NCBI RefSeq assembly: GCF_000223395.1 | Contig: NC_015931.1 | Coordinates: 390,001-422,000 of the forward strand | From: Pyrolobus fumarii 1A | GTDB taxonomy: Archaea > Thermoproteota > Thermoprotei_A > Sulfolobales > Pyrodictiaceae | DNA length: 32,000 nucleotides | Reading direction: 5' to 3' | Part shown: positions 21,397 to 30,958 of the stretch, piece by piece | Layout of the letters: the number at the start of each line of letters is the position of its first letter | How positions within the stretch are numbered: the stretch's first letter is position 1 | Program-made: the position numbers and the translations under genes | The notes under the pieces: model-generated | The model's input: only the letters and a program-made list of their open reading frames with translations | Database searches by the model: none | What the model was told of the DNA's origin: nothing

Positions 21397-23334
21397 CTAG
21401 AGTAGTACGCGTTTCAGCATTGCTAGGGAGGCTTCAAACACCTTGTTGATGATTTCTTCACGGACAGCGTCATCGGCTACATTCTTTGTGGCGACACAGT
21501 GAGTGGGGCAGGCACCACATACCCTTCCGCTGTCCCAACCAACGATACCATTAACAAATTGCGTGGCACCAGTGTGACACTTGACACTAACTTGCGCCCG
21601 ACATGTTGCGATATCAACCACGTTGAAGGTGCCATGCTTACCGCAGACAATAAGCGAGCCTACCCTCTCCTTATAATCCTCCAGTAGTTTTGAAGCCATT
21701 ATCACTACGTACCAGCTATTCGTCTTGCCTATAGGTGTCATTATCACCGGCGACTTTCTCCTCCCAGCTTCCCTACAGTTGCCTACTCCGTAGCCGTTCC
21801 CCTTTTGGTTCCGTGGCAAGCCAAGTATCCATGTATGGAAGGTCTCCCCCATGCTCGTCGTGCTAGCGCCACAGTATAACTTCCATACGCTCTTCAGTAC
21901 TGAACGTGCAATGGCGTCGAGCACGGCTATCTCGTCGGGAGGCCTCACCCGCCTAACTAGTCCAGCCTGCCTAGCCTGCCCCACAGTACCACTTGTAATC
22001 AATATTTTGTAGACTTGTTCACTTTGCCGGTAGCCCACTGCTTGCACTGGTAGAGGCAACGGGTGATGTATGGGGCCTATGGTGTGGACATCTATGCTAT
22101 TCTTTATACGTTCTTCGAGCCCATCCTCGGGTTCCTCAACAACACCTATCTCTACAAGTAGCCGTGCCATACTGATTAATAATTTTTGCGATTTATCCGC
22201 GAAACCATGGGCATCGCCGTCCTTCATACTCTTCGCGAGCTCTGACACCAACCTGCCCACTTCAGAGTCAATTAGATTACTGCCGTCAGCCAGCCTCGGT
22301 ATGAACCTGCCGAAGCCTCTTGCACCACCCCTCCCGAAGCCGTGCAGGGCAGCCGCCAACGCCACAGCTGCTATGGCCAGGCTGGCTAGCTGGCTATGTA
22401 GTCCTCTTCCCAAGAGTAGGCTTGCCTCAAACCCGTCTATCCTAAGCTCGACTTGATAGGCAAATCTACAGCTAGGGCTACAGGCGTAAGGCAGGGGCAG
22501 TTTCTCGAGAAGCTGGTCTATATCCTCAGCGTTGATCAGATTTAGTTTCACACGGGGATTGGCAACTAGACCTGCAATCGCATAAAGGCATCTATCCCTA
22601 GCGATGAGCTCAATGAGCCTCGATAGCTTATCGTTCCTGAGAATATAGTTAATATTGTTTCTGAGTGATTTGCATTCTCTCCCCGTCACAAGGCTCCTAA
22701 TGATGCTCCGAAGTACATCTGGAAACTTTGCATCGAAAATCTTGGATACCAGCTCTTTAGCACCCTCCTCACTAAGGTTCTTTACAAGCAGATCGTACTC
22801 ATAGAGCGTCTCTAATACTCCTATCAAAAGTCTAATCCAGCAGACAGGGCTGCGAGCATAACTACGTGTATCAATTCCCTGGAGGATAAGCCTGTAGACA
22901 TTCTCGAGGCACCTCCTAACTTTCTCCACACACCTCCTGGCATGCCACCCGTAAGTTTCTATGTTAATCGCGGGGTGAACGTGTAACTCGACGATCGATT
23001 TTCTTGTATTATGGGTTTCGCCCGTGTAACCGAAAAGCAGGCCTATAAGCTCGTCAACGCGTCGCAGGTCACGCTTGTCCGCCGCTAATGCCGCAGCAAC
23101 AAGCCTAACAATCCATCTTGTAACCCCCTTTACCGTCTCCGAGTTCAGGGGCGTAACGTATGGCCATCTGTGCTTCATAGTTGCTGTTGAATAATCGCCT
23201 CCCCACCAGGGTGTATATGGCTCGAGTATCACCTTGACGATGGTATACCTATCGTTTAACAAGTTATTAATCGTGTTCACGTCAATTACTTGTACAGAGA
23301 ATCCCGTCATGATTGAAATCACCTCCTTCTTCAC
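21397..23334 (-). CDS. cmr1: Cmr1 (type III-B RAMP subunit), unusually large
   Basis: EPYTPWWGGDY...SETVKGVTRWIVRLV, LLFGYTGETHNTRKSIVELHV, G-rich loop GFGRGGARGFGRF, then a second RAMP module HTWILGLPRN...GRRKSPVIMTPIG. Last gene of the cmr4-cmr5-cmr6-cmr1 operon. The GTG at 23334 overlaps the cmr6 stop; alternative ATG at 23310. Confidence 0.8.
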   Translation of the reverse strand: MKKEVISIMTGFSVQVIDVNTINNLLNDRYTIVKVILEPYTPWWGGDYSTATMKHRWPYVTPLNSETVKGVTRWIVRLVAAALAADKRDLRRVDELIGLLFGYTGETHNTRKSIVELHVHPAINIETYGWHARRCVEKVRRCLENVYRLILQGIDTRSYARSPVCWIRLLIGVLETLYEYDLLVKNLSEEGAKELVSKIFDAKFPDVLRSIIRSLVTGRECKSLRNNINYILRNDKLSRLIELIARDRCLYAIAGLVANPRVKLNLINAEDIDQLLEKLPLPYACSPSCRFAYQVELRIDGFEASLLLGRGLHSQLASLAIAAVALAAALHGFGRGGARGFGRFIPRLADGSNLIDSEVGRLVSELAKSMKDGDAHGFADKSQKLLISMARLLVEIGVVEEPEDGLEERIKNSIDVHTIGPIHHPLPLPVQAVGYRQSEQVYKILITSGTVGQARQAGLVRRVRPPDEIAVLDAIARSVLKSVWKLYCGASTTSMGETFHTWILGLPRNQKGNGYGVGNCREAGRRKSPVIMTPIGKTNSWYVVIMASKLLEDYKERVGSLIVCGKHGTFNVVDIATCRAQVSVKCHTGATQFVNGIVGWDSGRVCGACPTHCVATKNVADDAVREEIINKVFEASLAMLKRVLL

Positions 23335-29644: not shown

Positions 29645-30958
29645 GTGGGAGCTATGGCCATCTACCCCATAGGCCTTATTGCCCGAGGTTATACACCACT
29701 ATTGTTCACATGGGATGGACTCTACACGTTCACAGCCACCGGCCCCTCAGCATCGCCGATGACAAGACCCGTACCGATGCCCTCAACATTCACGGGTATG
29801 CTGGCGTCGCTAGCCAACGTTAGCGTTGCAGGAAAAACCCCAGTAGAGGAAGTTGCCAAGCTTGCCGGAGAGGCGTTAGGCTGCAAAGACTATAGGATAC
29901 GTGGCTATCTTCTCATGCTCGATAGGAGTGTGTGCACTGGAAATATAGGAGAGTTTGAAAGCTTATACATAATGGTTGACCTACGCGGCTATAATCCCCT
30001 TTTCTGGGTTGAAAGACTACGCCCAAGCAGCCTGAGCGACTTGATGATCAATGTAGAAGCGTGGGTGAAGACCGGTGTTGCGTTAAGTATCGAAGATAGG
30101 GTTGTCATAGGCGCTAGGATGCGTACAAGAAACTTGGACGGCGGCCCCGGAGCCTATACCGTCCTCTACACGCCCCCTGAGATGCGAAAGGCTGATAACA
30201 GGATGTGCATAGGAGTTTATGCTGAATTATTCTGTGAGGGTGATGAAAAACCTAAGAGGATTCTAGGTGTACTGGGTGGCGACCGCGGCATCGCTGAGGT
30301 GGTAACATCCAAGCCTATCCTGTACGAAAGTCTCAAAGACGAGTGGAATAAGGTGCGACAGCTGACTAATGCGAGTGTAAGAAGCATACGTTGCAGCTTT
30401 TATGCGCTACTTGCCTCGCCGTTACCCCTCACTGTGAAAGAGGCAGAGGAGCTAGTAAATAATGGCAAAGTCTTAGGCAACAACATGGAACAAAGGAATG
30501 CAACCCTCGCGGCTACATCATCAAGACTCGCTTCGAGACTCGGAGTTAGCAGGATAGAGTTGAGCATAGAGACACCTAGTAGATGGGAGGTTAGAAAACT
30601 CCTAGAAACCATACTAGAAGGTGAAGGGGCACTCAGAGAGAAACTCGAGAAGCTGTTACAGCCGCGGCTAACGGCAAGAGGCATAGGATATGACATTGCA
30701 TATAATGCCCCAAGACCCTACCATGTGATGCTCGAACCTGGAGGGATAATAGCGATTGAGGTGAAGATACAAGACACTATAGGCTCTCAAGCGGATCTCC
30801 CGGCTAGGCTCCTCGAGGCCATCTACGTCGAGGGTATAGCAGATGATAGCCTCGCTAAACTCGGCTGGGGTACGGTCATACCAACAACACTACCGAGATT
30901 ACATCCGCTAGCAGCAACACAATACAAACCTAGGCCTATATGTGTACCCTATGTTTGA
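29645..30958 (+). CDS. cmr3: Cmr3 (Cas5-family subunit, type III-B)
   Basis: YTPLLFTWDGLYTFTATGPSASPMTRPVPMPSTFTGMLASL fits the Cmr3 N-terminal pattern (LLFRxxRPF...P.PsTxxGxxR). C-terminal LAKLGWGTVIP is the G-rich loop. It lies directly after cas10; GTG 29645 or ATG 29654. Confidence 0.85.
   Translation: MGAMAIYPIGLIARGYTPLLFTWDGLYTFTATGPSASPMTRPVPMPSTFTGMLASLANVSVAGKTPVEEVAKLAGEALGCKDYRIRGYLLMLDRSVCTGNIGEFESLYIMVDLRGYNPLFWVERLRPSSLSDLMINVEAWVKTGVALSIEDRVVIGARMRTRNLDGGPGAYTVLYTPPEMRKADNRMCIGVYAELFCEGDEKPKRILGVLGGDRGIAEVVTSKPILYESLKDEWNKVRQLTNASVRSIRCSFYALLASPLPLTVKEAEELVNNGKVLGNNMEQRNATLAATSSRLASRLGVSRIELSIETPSRWEVRKLLETILEGEGALREKLEKLLQPRLTARGIGYDIAYNAPRPYHVMLEPGGIIAIEVKIQDTIGSQADLPARLLEAIYVEGIADDSLAKLGWGTVIPTTLPRLHPLAATQYKPRPICVPYV

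What the first reader, a model, noticed from the sequence alone, without database searches (positions are those of the whole stretch)
21397..30958. Complete Cmr (III-B) module with intact cyclase motif but no recognisable cOA effector nearby
- **Seen in sequence.** All six Cmr subunits are present, in two divergent operons. Cas10 keeps HD, the Zn finger and GGDD, so cyclic-oligoadenylate synthesis is expected.
- **What is missing.** Neither flank carries a Csx1/Csm6-, Can-, NucC-, CARF- or SAVED-type gene that I can recognise. The only CARF protein in the window is Csa3, about 16 kb away.
- **What the flanks hold instead.** A cas3'' pseudogene, a phosphatase remnant plus the HExxH protein on one side, and an AT-rich gap plus an antitoxin gene on the other.
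- **Possible readings.** The effector is encoded elsewhere, the signal is read by Csa3, or one of the unassigned neighbours is a new effector.
Basis: partly seen in the sequence, partly recalled or inferred. Interest (0 to 1): 0.6.

Follow-up and report, generated by a model that had tools for sequence, protein, structure and literature searches.

The report
Stand-alone Cmr cassette without neighbouring effector
This is an intact type III-B (Cmr) CRISPR interference cassette of the archaeon Pyrolobus fumarii that has no signal-activated nuclease gene beside it, a known and fairly common arrangement, so it is correctly observed but ordinary.

Summary
Window 21397-30958 carries all six Cmr genes in two divergent operons: cmr4-cmr5-cmr6-cmr1 on the minus strand and cas10-cmr3 on the plus strand. 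Cas10 keeps the HD dyad, a CxxC...CxxC zinc finger, the Palm1 GDGD motif and GGDD.

Pfam and PADLOC scans found no CARF, SAVED, Csx1/Csm6, Can or NucC gene except Csa3. The scans covered the window's large ORFs and every unassigned ORF of 58 aa or more, including 3.9 kb beyond the window.

The window is Pyrolobus fumarii 1A (Pyrfu_0418-0448). The cassette lies in an 11.5-kb low-GC island between two CRISPR arrays that share one repeat, next to a type I-A module and decayed cas fragments. No cas6, cas1, cas2 or cas4 was recognised in the 35.9 kb, so the locus already relies on genes elsewhere.

The nearest solved Cas10 is S. islandicus Cmr-beta, which makes cOA and activates Csx1 in trans. Four of five related cassettes also lack a recognisable neighbouring effector; the fifth has a CARF-PIN gene.

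The 446-aa HExxH protein is a rare zincin-domain protein with no detectable sensor domain and no cas linkage in the two homologue contexts read.

Best reading: a laterally acquired solo cassette whose signal, if made, is read in trans. I could not run a whole-genome CARF census.

The parts
21397..23334 (-). cmr1, 645 aa (637-641 aa with later starts); large two-RAMP subunit with GRGGARGFGRF and GRRKSP loops
   Evidence: PADLOC Cmr1 E 1.5e-8. TIGR01894 is weak, E 0.018. BLASTP to the positional Cmr1 of L008 gives 9e-32 and of L011 gives 4e-19. The word-indexed search found no homologue other than itself.
23331..24473 (-). cmr6, 380 aa (366 aa from the start called in L001); the RAMP domain is residues 171-371 and the N-terminal extension looks coiled-coil
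   Evidence: TIGR01898 E 6.4e-15 and Pfam RAMPs E 7e-10. Homologues occur in all five related cassettes.
24477..25160 (-). cmr5 (Cas11 small subunit), 227 aa
   Evidence: PADLOC Cmr5 E 1.4e-157, plus two further Cmr5 profiles at about 1e-5. BLASTP to the L008 Cmr5 gives 7.5e-10.
25167..26267 (-). cmr4 (Cas7 backbone, target-RNA nuclease), 366 aa; carries the GVVDLPVQRD motif with candidate catalytic D37
   Evidence: TIGR02580 E 1.7e-40. Motif located. Assigning D37 as catalytic is inference from Cmr4 D31 of SisCmr-beta (bioRxiv 10.1101/2020.06.24.163345).
26268..26397 (.). 130-bp divergent intergenic region, GC 0.44, with TATAAATA and TATATA boxes; a GAGGTG lies 8 nt before the cas10 TTG start
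   Evidence: Read directly from the sequence; GC. Promoter function is inferred.
26398..29643 (+). cas10/cmr2, 1081 aa. HD dyad 26470-26475; zinc finger 28036-28134; Palm1 GDGD 28468-28479; GGDD 28744-28755
   Evidence: Pfam Cmr2_N E 1.1e-33 and TIGR02577 E 6.7e-40. Best solved relative is S. islandicus Cmr-beta Cmr2, 6S6B, E 2.1e-32, with HD and GGDD aligned. HD, the Palm1 motif and GGDD (SGDD in one) are kept in all 15 clade members compared; the CxxC...CxxC zinc finger was found in 14 of 15. Coordinates. This is Pyrfu_0447.
29654..30958 (+). cmr3 (Cas5-like), 434 aa from the ATG at 29654
   Evidence: PADLOC Cmr3 E 8.2e-11. BLASTP to the L008 Cmr3, which carries Pfam Cas_Cmr3, gives 4.6e-16. 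This is Pyrfu_0448.
1..1251 (+). CRISPR array A: at least 18 copies of GAAACAACCAAGAATGAATTGAAAG, spaced 62-82 bp (mostly 66-70), running off the left end of the window; the repeat ends in ATTGAAAG, the usual 8-nt crRNA 5' tag
   Evidence: A second array with the same repeat in the opposite orientation starts about 3.7 kb past the window end, at L001 14502.
9555..10271 (-). csa3 (CARF plus winged HTH), the only CARF gene in the 35.9 kb examined; motif 1 core VIGFDE at residues 18-23 and motif 2 LASGMR at residues 113-118
   Evidence: PADLOC CARF3 E 9.5e-19 and Csa3 E 4.4e-11. Pfam Csa3_N E 1.6e-5, just below its cut-off. Motif definitions from PMC8699464; positions.
10366..16516 (+). Type I-A interference module: csa5-like, cas7/csa2, cas5a, a 418-aa protein called cas8a from its position only, cas3', cas3''
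   Evidence: Pfam DevR E 1.1e-66, Cas3-like_C_2, DEAD and HD. Csa5 is weak, E 0.11. The 418-aa protein hit no profile.
17259..17543 (-). C-terminal remnant of a type III Cas7 (Csm3-like) gene, with a GGHKSRGYG loop
   Evidence: PADLOC Cas7_IIIf E 8e-6 and Csm3 E 2.3e-5. Pfam RAMPs E 0.0019.
18805..20145 (-). 446-aa HExxH protein (Pyrfu_0440): conserved zincin/SprT-like domain of about 140 aa at the N terminus, and a variable C-terminal region of unknown fold
   Evidence: Only 9 homologues among 1.84 billion representatives. Conserved HELVHHLQ...RPHE motifs. Some homologues hit SprT-like weakly, E 5e-4. AF2 gives pLDDT 80-97 for the N-terminal domain and a poor C-terminal region. No Foldseek PDB hit below E 0.01.
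20097..20513 (-). Dual-specificity phosphatase fragment
   Evidence: Pfam DSPc E 3.2e-5. It is 49% identical to residues 30-133 of the intact DSP gene at 8794-9240.
20652..21202 (+). cas3'' pseudogene: N-terminally truncated, with a frameshift near 21020
   Evidence: tblastn with the intact Cas3'' (15617-16516) gives two pieces in different frames, 35% and 41% identity, E 4.8e-23.
30959..31835 (.). AT-rich gap with no recognisable gene, GC 0.47; it lies inside the low-GC island that spans about 21,000-32,550
   Evidence: Composition. No Rfam family. No Pfam or PADLOC hit for its ORFs.
31836..32000 (+). Start of an AF2212-like antitoxin gene (vapB), followed beyond the window by a PIN toxin gene
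   Evidence: Gene calls in L001 and L002. Pfam AF2212-like E 1.2e-19 and PIN E 2.7e-16.

Best explanation
**What it is.** This is an intact, self-contained type III-B interference cassette of Pyrolobus fumarii 1A. It belongs to the same Cas10 lineage as Sulfolobus islandicus Cmr-beta. It probably arrived by lateral transfer as an 11.5-kb low-GC block together with a VapBC pair, and it never carried an effector gene.

**How it most likely works (all steps inferred from the characterised relative).**
- crRNAs come from the two flanking arrays, cut by a Cas6 encoded elsewhere to leave the AUUGAAAG tag.
- These crRNAs load the Cmr1-6 complex, and Cmr4 cuts the matching transcript.
- Target binding switches on Cas10. 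Its HD site cuts ssDNA, and perhaps UA-containing RNA, and its Palm/GGDD site makes cyclic oligoadenylate.
- As in SisCmr-beta, ATP turnover at the cyclase site may also boost the HD nuclease. That would keep GGDD under selection even without an effector.
- Any cOA made is read in trans. Candidates are Csa3, 11 kb upstream (transcriptional cross-talk with type I-A), and most probably a CARF nuclease of Csx1 or CARF-PIN type elsewhere in the 1.84-Mb genome.

**Shown here.** Gene content, motifs, absence of a local effector, island composition and the solo habit of relatives.

**Not shown.** Every enzymatic step, and the existence of a distant effector.
For: **Identity and intactness.**
- All six subunits are identified and intact.
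- Catalytic motifs are present, and HD, Palm1 and GGDD/SGDD are kept in all 15 clade members compared.

**Closest characterised system.**
- The best solved relative is the SisCmr-beta Cas10.
- That complex cleaves ssDNA, makes cOA, has a UA-specific RNase, shows cyclase-to-HD allostery, and its cOA activates Csx1 (bioRxiv 10.1101/2020.06.24.163345).

**No local effector.**
- None was found by Pfam or PADLOC in the window's large ORFs and all unassigned ORFs of 58 aa or more, across 35.9 kb.
- tblastn with the relative's CARF-PIN protein found no remnant.

**The locus already depends on trans-encoded parts.**
- No cas6, cas1, cas2 or cas4 was recognised between the two arrays.

**Lateral acquisition.**
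- GC is 0.47-0.53 from about 21,000 to 32,550, against 0.58-0.65 on both sides.

**Relatives.**
- L008, L010, L011 and L013 are six-gene cassettes, some set among housekeeping genes, with no recognisable CARF or SAVED neighbour.
- L012 has a CARF-PIN gene right after cmr3, so this lineage does use CARF effectors.

**Literature.**
- 133 cyclase-positive loci without effectors are reported, enriched in genomes with several type III loci (PMC11229360).
- In S. solfataricus, CARF genes sit only with the I-A clusters (PMC8699464).
- Csa3 binds cA4 (PMC8699464, PMC8844856).
Against: - The rest of the P. fumarii genome could not be searched. Two genome-contig scans found nothing, and only short Logan contigs were returned. 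The trans effector is therefore assumed, not seen.
- No second P. fumarii Cas10 appeared among the Cas10 homologues. The 'several type III loci' argument from the literature may not apply, although a Csm3-like remnant shows that a second module once existed.
- Flank coverage in the relatives is short on some sides: L011 has 0.35 kb downstream and L008 has 1.8 kb.
- No expression or activity data exist for this cassette.
- The low-GC block could reflect gene-specific composition rather than transfer.
Confidence: 0.6

Rival explanations
1. **Signalling without a nuclease.** P. fumarii has no cOA-activated nuclease at all. On this reading the cyclase product serves only two purposes:
- to regulate transcription through Csa3, for example of the adjacent type I-A genes, the arrays or adaptation genes;
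- to boost the Cas10 HD nuclease allosterically.
For: - Csa3 is the only CARF protein in 35.9 kb, and it keeps motif 2 and the GFDE core of motif 1 of the cA4 pocket.
- Csa3 from Sulfolobales binds cA4 (PMC8699464, PMC8844856).
- The Cas10 HD site is complete, so direct nuclease immunity is available.
- Cyclase-to-HD allostery is documented for SisCmr-beta.
- Four of five relatives lack a recognisable neighbouring effector.
Against: - One relative (L012) does carry a CARF-PIN gene next to cmr3, so the lineage is compatible with nuclease effectors.
- The Thr and Arg of Csa3 motif 1 are replaced here by Val and His.
- This Csa3 is too divergent to align with solved Csa3 structures, so ligand binding is unverified.
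- From my own general knowledge, most archaeal genomes with type III systems carry at least one Csx1-type gene. I did not test this here.
Confidence: 0.2
2. **A local unassigned gene is a new kind of effector.** Candidates are:
- the 446-aa zincin protein, acting as a signal-activated protease;
- the HEPN-MNT pairs downstream;
- a small membrane protein.
For: - The 446-aa protein has an intact HExxH zincin domain plus about 290 aa of unassigned sequence.
- Its weak top fold matches are PrpR and IrrE/PprI, which are metalloprotease-like domains joined to GAF-type sensor domains.
- Orthologous HEPN-MNT pairs lie next to related cassettes in L008 and L010. One also lies on the contig carrying the only full-length homologue of the 446-aa protein.
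- Protease effectors of type III systems are known; I state this from my own knowledge.
Against: - Neither Pfam nor PADLOC finds a CARF, SAVED or other sensor domain in any of these proteins.
- The fold matches are not significant: E at least 0.01 and TM-score at most 0.26, on a model whose C-terminal half has pLDDT 28-65.
- The two homologue contexts read for the 446-aa protein show no recognisable cas genes.
- The 446-aa gene lies outside the low-GC island, so it did not arrive with the cassette.
- Toxin-antitoxin pairs bordering type III modules are a known feature of the mobilome (PMC6546367).
Confidence: 0.07
3. **The effector was lost by decay.** A former effector gene was deleted together with the neighbouring cas genes, and the cassette may be heading towards inactivation.
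For: The DNA to the left of cmr1 is littered with cas debris:
- a Csm3-like remnant;
- a truncated and frameshifted cas3'';
- a phosphatase fragment that mirrors the intact DSP...cas3'' block with its middle deleted.

An archaeal ATPase fragment also lies downstream.
Against: - All six cmr genes are full-length, comparable in size to their homologues, and keep their catalytic motifs.
- No CARF remnant turned up in the ORF scans of unassigned regions or in tblastn.
- The debris lies in the high-GC flank, outside the island that carries the cassette.
- Relatives show that solo cassettes are the norm for this lineage.
Confidence: 0.1

Closest known systems
Sulfolobus islandicus Cmr-beta (type III-B; PDB 6S6B and related entries)
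   Same: - Its Cas10 is the best solved match, E 2.1e-32, with the HD dyad, a zinc-finger cysteine pair and GGDD aligned.
- The Cas10 is similarly large, about 1040-1080 aa.
- The complex makes cOA that activates Csx1 in vitro; Csx1 is described there as an auxiliary, separate RNase.
- Both live in a genome that also has type I-A and Csa3.
   Different: - Identity is only about 25%.
- No Cmr7 profile hit turned up in the PADLOC scans.
- Gene order differs: here there are two divergent operons, with cmr6 before cmr1.
- Cmr1 is much larger here, at 645 aa.
- No activity has been measured for the P. fumarii complex.
Effector-less, cyclase-positive type III loci described by Hoikkala, Graham and White 2024 (PMC11229360)
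   Same: Cas10 has a conserved cyclase motif and no known effector in the locus. The authors propose signalling to effectors encoded elsewhere in the genome.
   Different: - Their 133 loci were selected for a Cas10 that lacks the HD nuclease. This Cas10 keeps HD, so it also has a direct nuclease route.
- P. fumarii was not found in the supplementary files held.
Solo six-gene cmr cassettes in uncultured archaeal genomes (loci L008/L009, L010, L011, L012, L013)
   Same: - These are the closest relatives of all six proteins, with Cas10 27-33% identical.
- Cmr1 is large in all of them, 514-625 aa.
- HD and GGDD are kept (SGDD in the L013 Cas10).
- Four of five have no recognisable CARF or SAVED neighbour.
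- Orthologous HEPN-MNT pairs sit next to two of them.
   Different: - They are colinear on one strand, in the order cmr4-cmr5-cmr1-cmr6-cas10-cmr3.
- P. fumarii has the cas10-cmr3 pair inverted and cmr1 and cmr6 swapped.
- L012 has a CARF-PIN gene directly after cmr3; P. fumarii has no trace of it.
Csa3-mediated cross-talk between type III and type I-A systems in Sulfolobales (PMC8699464, PMC8844856, PMC7480081)
   Same: A CARF plus wHTH protein is encoded beside a type I-A module in a genome that also has a cyclase-competent Cmr complex. The LxxGhR motif and the GFDE core are present.
   Different: - This Csa3 is too divergent to match solved Csa3 chains by sequence.
- Two motif-1 positions differ.
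- No binding or regulation data exist for it.

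Membership tests
Type III-B (Cmr) effector module | Cas10/Cmr2 large subunit with a Cmr2-type N-terminal region and Palm domains | tested here: met
   Pfam Cmr2_N E 1.1e-33 and Cas10-Cmr2_palm2 E 6.4e-8. TIGR02577 scores 137 bits against a cut-off of 79.
Type III-B (Cmr) effector module | Cmr4 and Cmr6 RAMP subunits | tested here: met
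   TIGR02580 scores 139.6 bits (cut-off 87). TIGR01898 scores 55.8 bits (cut-off 51.1).
Type III-B (Cmr) effector module | Cmr1, Cmr3 and Cmr5 subunits | tested here: met
   - PADLOC gives Cmr1 E 1.5e-8, Cmr3 E 8.2e-11 and Cmr5 E 1.4e-157.
- Pfam and NCBIfam give nothing above their cut-offs.
- Positional homologues exist in five related cassettes.
Type III-B (Cmr) effector module | A CRISPR array supplying crRNA with the 8-nt repeat-derived tag, and a Cas6 to cut it | tested here: inconclusive
   - Two arrays whose repeat ends in ATTGAAAG flank the locus.
- No Cas6 was recognised in the 35.9 kb.
- Cas6 must be encoded elsewhere, which I could not check.
cOA-signalling type III system | Cyclase active site: GGDD in Palm2 and the acidic motif in Palm1 | tested here: met
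   GGDD at 783-786 and GDGD at 691-694, aligned with the same motifs of SisCmr2-beta and kept across the clade.
cOA-signalling type III system | cOA is actually synthesised on target RNA binding | not testable with these tools
   This needs the complex to be reconstituted. It is inferred only from SisCmr-beta.
cOA-signalling type III system | A cOA-activated effector (CARF or SAVED fused to a nuclease, protease or similar) encoded in the locus | tested here: not met
   - Pfam and PADLOC found none in the window's large ORFs or in any unassigned ORF of 58 aa or more, in the window or 3.9 kb beyond it; only Csa3 hits.
- tblastn with the CARF-PIN protein was negative.
- A fold test was possible only for the 446-aa protein and was inconclusive.
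cOA-signalling type III system | A cOA-activated effector encoded anywhere in the genome | not testable with these tools
Cmr-beta subfamily (Sulfolobales) | Cas10 is closest to Cmr2-beta | tested here: met
   6S6B chain K is the best PDB sequence match, E 2.1e-32. Sulfolobales Cmr2 proteins appear among the 20 homologues found.
Cmr-beta subfamily (Sulfolobales) | Cmr7 accessory subunit | tested here: not met
   No Cmr7 hit appeared in the PADLOC scans of the unassigned ORFs. I did not confirm that PADLOC holds a Cmr7 model, so this counts as absence of a recognisable Cmr7.
Csa3 (CARF plus wHTH cA4 receptor) | N-terminal Csa3-type CARF domain plus a C-terminal winged helix | tested here: met
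   - PADLOC CARF3 E 9.5e-19 and Csa3 E 4.4e-11.
- Pfam Csa3_N scores 25.4 bits against a cut-off of 27.
- Several wHTH families hit at residues 174-231.
Csa3 (CARF plus wHTH cA4 receptor) | Ligand-pocket motifs T-h-G-F-(N/D)-E-x4-R and L-x2-G-h-R (PMC8699464) | tested here: inconclusive
   Motif 2 (LASGMR) is complete. Motif 1 reads V-I-G-F-D-E-x4-H, so the core is kept but the Thr and Arg are replaced.
CARF/SAVED effector (applied to the 446-aa HExxH protein) | A CARF or SAVED sensor domain | tested here: inconclusive
   - No profile hit.
- The C-terminal 290 aa are modelled at pLDDT 28-65.
- No Foldseek match below E 0.01, and none of the 50 matches listed is a CARF or SAVED protein.

The most novel reading that the evidence does not exclude
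Pyrolobus fumarii may have no cOA-activated nuclease anywhere in its genome. In that case the conserved cyclase of this Cmr lineage would serve only two purposes: to drive Csa3-dependent transcription and to boost the Cas10 HD nuclease allosterically. That would be a type III system that signals without a 'killer' effector. A less likely variant is that the HEPN-MNT pairs conserved beside these cassettes, or the zincin protein, are the missing output.
Probability: 0.15. Interest if true: 0.55.

Novelty: new member of a known kind. Interest (0 to 1): 0.25.

Why it matters
It matters little as it stands. Effector-less but cyclase-competent type III loci are a recognised class, and trans-acting Csx1 and Csa3 cross-talk are documented in related archaea.

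The locus is useful in two modest ways.
- It is a clean example of a Cmr cassette that travels without an effector, in a small 1.84-Mb genome. A complete CARF/SAVED census of that genome would be quick and would show whether 'signalling without a nuclease' really occurs.
- It shows that Pfam alone can miss bona fide CARF effectors. The CARF-PIN gene of a related locus gets no Pfam hit but scores E 1.8e-96 in PADLOC. 'No effector' calls based on Pfam alone are therefore unsafe.

Tried and rejected
**Reaching the rest of the genome.**
- The search for related loci with Cmr3 and the DNA search with the CRISPR repeat, both in genome contigs, found nothing.
- Exact-protein look-ups returned only Logan contigs of 3-15 kb that break at the two arrays.
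- No whole-genome CARF census was therefore possible.

**Literature on P. fumarii CARF or Csx1 genes.**
- Full-text searches gave nothing relevant.
- The Makarova 2020 CARF paper is not held.
- The supplements of PMC11229360 do not mention the genome.
- The supplements of PMC6546367 are not held.

**Sequence searches on individual proteins.**
- PDB sequence searches for Cmr1, Cmr3, Cmr5, the 446-aa protein and Csa3 gave no meaningful match.
- Word-indexed homology searches for Cmr1 and the 446-aa protein returned only the proteins themselves.

**Structure of the 446-aa protein.**
- The single-sequence AF2 model was unusable, pLDDT 36.
- The model built on the 10-sequence alignment is good only for the N-terminal zincin domain.
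- Its Foldseek matches to PrpR, IrrE and GAF-domain proteins are not significant, so I do not rely on them.

**Other negative results.**
- tblastn of the 446-aa protein against phage and plasmid collections found no match.
- Rfam found no family in the window.
- One homologue, P0017, was not on record for a context look-up.

**Readings I rejected.**
- The 299-aa HD protein at 15617-16516 is not the pseudogene. It is intact. The pseudogene is the fragment at 20652-21202.
- The PADLOC 'Cyclase' hits among the small ORFs are not evidence of CBASS. I did not trace them to specific ORFs; the only nucleotidyltransferase-type ORFs in the set are the minimal nucleotidyltransferases of the HEPN-MNT pairs, so I attribute the hits to those.

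Full report
**Source and layout**

Exact-sequence look-ups place the window in Pyrolobus fumarii 1A, on a 1,843,267-bp chromosome. Cas10 is Pyrfu_0447, Cmr3 is Pyrfu_0448, the 446-aa HExxH protein is Pyrfu_0440, Csa3 is Pyrfu_0428, and the PIN protein at 1647-2096 is Pyrfu_0418.

Logan contigs of the same strain differ from the window at 3 of 10,804 positions. They extend it by 3.9 kb, and L001 coordinate + 21196 gives the window coordinate.

Reading left to right, the 35.9 kb holds the following:
- CRISPR array A at 1-1251;
- a VapBC-like pair;
- an ABC importer;
- a dual-specificity phosphatase gene;
- csa3;
- a type I-A interference module at 10366-16516;
- about 4.8 kb of debris and small genes;
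- the Cmr cassette at 21397-30958;
- an AT-rich gap;
- a vapBC pair;
- a HepT/MNT pair;
- a small membrane protein;
- a HEPN/nucleotidyltransferase pair;
- CRISPR array B, with the same repeat in the opposite orientation and degenerate terminal repeats nearest the cassette.

**Check of the observation**

Four of the six ORFs were not settled by Pfam alone, so I used NCBIfam and PADLOC as well.

| Subunit | Coordinates | Best evidence |
|---|---|---|
| Cmr4 | 25167-26267(-) | TIGR02580 E 1.7e-40 |
| Cmr6 | 23331-24473(-) | TIGR01898 E 6.4e-15 |
| Cas10 | 26398-29643(+) | TIGR02577 E 6.7e-40 |
| Cmr5 | 24477-25160(-) | PADLOC E 1.4e-157 |
| Cmr3 | 29654-30958(+) | PADLOC E 8.2e-11 |
| Cmr1 | 21397-23334(-) | PADLOC E 1.5e-8 |

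The Cmr1, Cmr3 and Cmr5 assignments are backed by BLASTP matches to the genes in the same positions of related cassettes. For example, Cmr1 matches the 616-aa protein of L008 at E 9e-32.

Cas10 carries these motifs:
- LLHDVP, with the HD dyad at H25/D26;
- ADSRAS, with D120;
- IDHLY, with H244;
- the zinc finger C547-x2-C...C576-x2-C;
- GDGD at 691-694;
- GGDD at 783-786.

In the HMMER alignment with S. islandicus Cmr2-beta (6S6B), the HD dyad and GGDD line up with that enzyme's own motifs. H244 (IDHLY) aligns with H180, which Sofos et al. name as an active-site residue together with H20, D21 and D73. All six ORFs are full length.

**The missing effector**

Three sets of scans were run.
- Pfam on the large ORFs of the window.
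- PADLOC on ten proteins: Cmr1, Cmr5, Cmr3, six unassigned proteins and Csa3.
- Pfam and PADLOC on 112 stop-to-stop ORFs of 58 aa or more. These came from every unassigned stretch of the window and from the 3.9 kb beyond it.

The only CARF hit is Csa3, scored as PADLOC CARF3 at E 9.5e-19. The other hits are listed here:
- VapBC, HepT, HEPN and minimal nucleotidyltransferases;
- DUF2283;
- an archaeal ATPase fragment;
- a Csm3-like remnant.

The downstream refutation test, 'a canonical Csx1/Csm6 just beyond the window', is negative as far as array B. Upstream, the window itself ends inside array A, and I could not read past either array.

**The 446-aa HExxH protein**

- It has only nine homologues among 1.84 billion representatives.
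- What is conserved is an N-terminal domain of about 140 aa, with G.Y...LY...HELVHHLQ..GH...RPHE(I/V)EA.
- Some homologues hit SprT-like and other putative metallopeptidase families weakly.
- With the ten-sequence alignment, AF2 models this domain at pLDDT 80-97. The C-terminal 290 aa reach only 28-65.
- Foldseek against the PDB gives nothing below E 0.01. The top matches are PrpR, IrrE/PprI and GAF-containing proteins, all with TM-scores of 0.26 or less. I treat them only as a lead.
- The contig carrying its only full-length homologue shows no recognisable cas gene. Neither do the two near-identical contigs carrying a more distant homologue that shares mainly the N-terminal domain.
- The gene lies in the high-GC flank, not in the island that carries the cassette.

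I conclude that it is a zincin-type protein of unknown role, and nothing ties it to type III signalling.

**What the surroundings add**

First, composition. GC is 0.47-0.53 from about 21,000 to 32,550, a stretch that holds the six cmr genes, the gap and vapBC. It is 0.58-0.65 on both sides. The cassette therefore looks like a laterally acquired block.

Second, the flank to the left of the block is a graveyard of cas genes:
- a type III Cas7/Csm3 C-terminal remnant at 17259-17543;
- a frameshifted and truncated cas3'' at 20652-21202;
- a phosphatase fragment at 20202-20513.

The last two mirror the intact 'phosphatase ... cas3''' block at 8.8-16.5 kb, with the middle deleted.

Third, no cas6, cas1, cas2 or cas4 was recognised anywhere between the arrays. 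This CRISPR-Cas system is spread across the genome, and the cassette already depends on genes located elsewhere.

**Relatives**

The Cas10 is very divergent. Only 20 homologues were found, and the best is 33% identical. Five related loci were read.

| Locus | Gene order | Surroundings | CARF or SAVED neighbour |
|---|---|---|---|
| L008/L009 | cmr4-cmr5-cmr1-cmr6-cas10-cmr3 | HEPN/NTase pair upstream | none recognised |
| L010 | same | restriction-modification, UbiA, UbiD; HepT/MNT downstream | none recognised |
| L011 | same | cytochrome oxidase genes | none recognised |
| L012 | same | tRNA synthetase genes | CARF-PIN, 472 aa |
| L013 | same | MarC, AAA ATPase, MgtC | none recognised |

The unassigned neighbours of L008, L010, L011 and L012 were scanned with both PADLOC and Pfam, and those of L013 with PADLOC only.

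In L012 the 472-aa gene convergent with cmr3 scores PADLOC CARF_m3--CARF_PIN at E 1.8e-96, while Pfam reports nothing for it. tblastn with that protein finds no trace in the window or its extension.

All 15 Cas10 proteins compared keep HD, the Palm1 motif and GGDD, with SGDD in one of them. The cyclase site is thus conserved in a lineage whose cassettes usually travel without an effector.

**Mechanism**

The closest characterised complex is SisCmr-beta. According to bioRxiv 10.1101/2020.06.24.163345, it has these properties:
- it cuts target RNA at 6-nt intervals through Cmr4;
- it cleaves ssDNA and UA-containing ssRNA through the Cas10 HD site;
- it makes cOA only with a cognate target;
- its HD activity is stimulated by ATP turnover at the cyclase site;
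- its cOA activates Csx1.

By inference, the P. fumarii complex works the same way. The cyclase site can remain under selection both for trans signalling and for HD stimulation.

Csa3 of Sulfolobales binds cA4 (PMC8699464, PMC8844856). The local Csa3 keeps LASGMR (motif 2) and the GFDE core of motif 1, but has Val and His where Thr and Arg are expected.

In S. solfataricus the CARF genes sit only with the I-A clusters, not with the type III cassettes (PMC8699464). Hoikkala et al. list 133 cyclase-positive loci without effectors and propose signalling between loci (PMC11229360).

**Verdict**

The interpretation that fits best is the ordinary one: a solo, probably transferred Cmr cassette that relies on trans-encoded partners.

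My estimates for the source of the output are as follows:
- about 0.6 that a CARF-type nuclease lies elsewhere in the genome;
- about 0.2 that Csa3 and HD stimulation are the only outputs;
- about 0.1 that an effector was lost by decay;
- under 0.1 that a local unassigned gene is a new effector.

The decisive test is a CARF/SAVED profile scan of the whole P. fumarii proteome. It is simple, but I could not run it.

Novelty is low: this is a new member of a known kind. Interest is 0.25.

Noticed in passing
window 1-1251 (+); second array from L001 14502 (window-equivalent 35698) onward: Two CRISPR arrays with the same 25-nt repeat (GAAACAACCAAGAATGAATTGAAAG) bracket the whole I-A plus Cmr region in opposite orientations. 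Array A has at least 18 repeats and runs off the window. Array B starts with three degenerate repeats on the side facing the cassette. Logan contigs break at both arrays.
   Followed up: partly
window about 21,000-32,000, continuing to about 32,550 in L001: An 11.5-kb low-GC island (GC 0.47-0.53) holds exactly the six cmr genes, the AT-rich gap and a vapBC pair. It sits between flanks of GC 0.58-0.65, which suggests lateral acquisition of the cassette with an addiction module. No flanking direct repeats longer than 14 nt were found.
   Followed up: partly
window 17259-17543 (-): A 95-aa open frame encodes the C-terminal part of a type III Cas7/Csm3-like RAMP protein (PADLOC E 8e-6). It is a relic of a second type III module in the same locus. 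The rest of the gene was not found.
   Followed up: partly
window 20202-21202, compared with 8794-16516: A phosphatase fragment on the minus strand and a frameshifted cas3'' fragment on the plus strand lie 140 bp apart. They mirror the ends of the intact 'phosphatase-csa3-I-A-cas3''' block, at 49% and 35-41% protein identity. This looks like a second, older type I-A module whose interior was deleted.
   Followed up: yes
L001 11966-12837 and 13649-14426 (window-equivalent 33162-35622); L010 16111-16936; L008 909-1669; L007 3638-4601: The two HEPN-type toxin plus nucleotidyltransferase pairs downstream of cmr3 have 42-55% identical counterparts next to related cmr cassettes in L010 and L008. A counterpart also lies on the contig carrying the only full-length homologue of the 446-aa zincin protein. 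These pairs are more conserved than the Cmr proteins themselves. This could be mobilome hitch-hiking, which is known for toxin-antitoxin pairs near type III modules, or a functional link.
   Followed up: partly
L012 14127-15545 (-): A 472-aa CARF-PIN protein lies next to a related cmr cassette. PADLOC recognises it at E 1.8e-96, but it gets no Pfam hit at E 0.01 or better. Pfam-only screens for cOA effectors can therefore miss this family.
   Followed up: yes
window 1-32000 plus 3.9 kb downstream: No cas6, cas1, cas2 or cas4 was recognised in the 35.9 kb between the arrays. The crRNA-processing and adaptation genes of this system must lie elsewhere in the genome.
   Followed up: partly
window 21397-23334 (-): Cmr1 is unusually large at 645 aa, and the word-indexed search of 5.8 billion proteins found no homologue but itself. 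It is recognisable only through PADLOC profiles and through the 514-625-aa Cmr1 proteins of related cassettes. About 200 aa between its two RAMP cores are unassigned.
   Followed up: partly
window 16651-17046 (-), tandem repeat at 16798-16885: A 131-aa ORF encodes a charged coiled-coil region with a 33-nt (11-aa) tandem repeat and a C-terminal transmembrane helix. It lies just after cas3''. It has only weak coiled-coil-type profile hits, and its function is unknown.
   Followed up: no
window 17503-18019 (-): A small DUF2283 gene (Pfam E 2.5e-15) overlaps a 96-aa upstream ORF. Together they look like a two-gene toxin-antitoxin-like pair sitting within the debris between the I-A and Cmr modules.
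   Followed up: no
L010 14423-15022 (-) and L012 18193-18960 (+): Proteins of 199 aa and 255 aa with no family assignment are 29% identical (E 1.6e-9). Both lie downstream of cmr3 in two related cassettes, and P. fumarii has no counterpart. They are a possible lineage-specific accessory gene.
   Followed up: no
window 3538-7809 (+): An ABC importer of the iron-siderophore/cobalamin type sits between CRISPR array A and the cas genes. Its substrate-binding protein carries two Peripla_BP_2 domains in one 752-806-aa chain.
   Followed up: no
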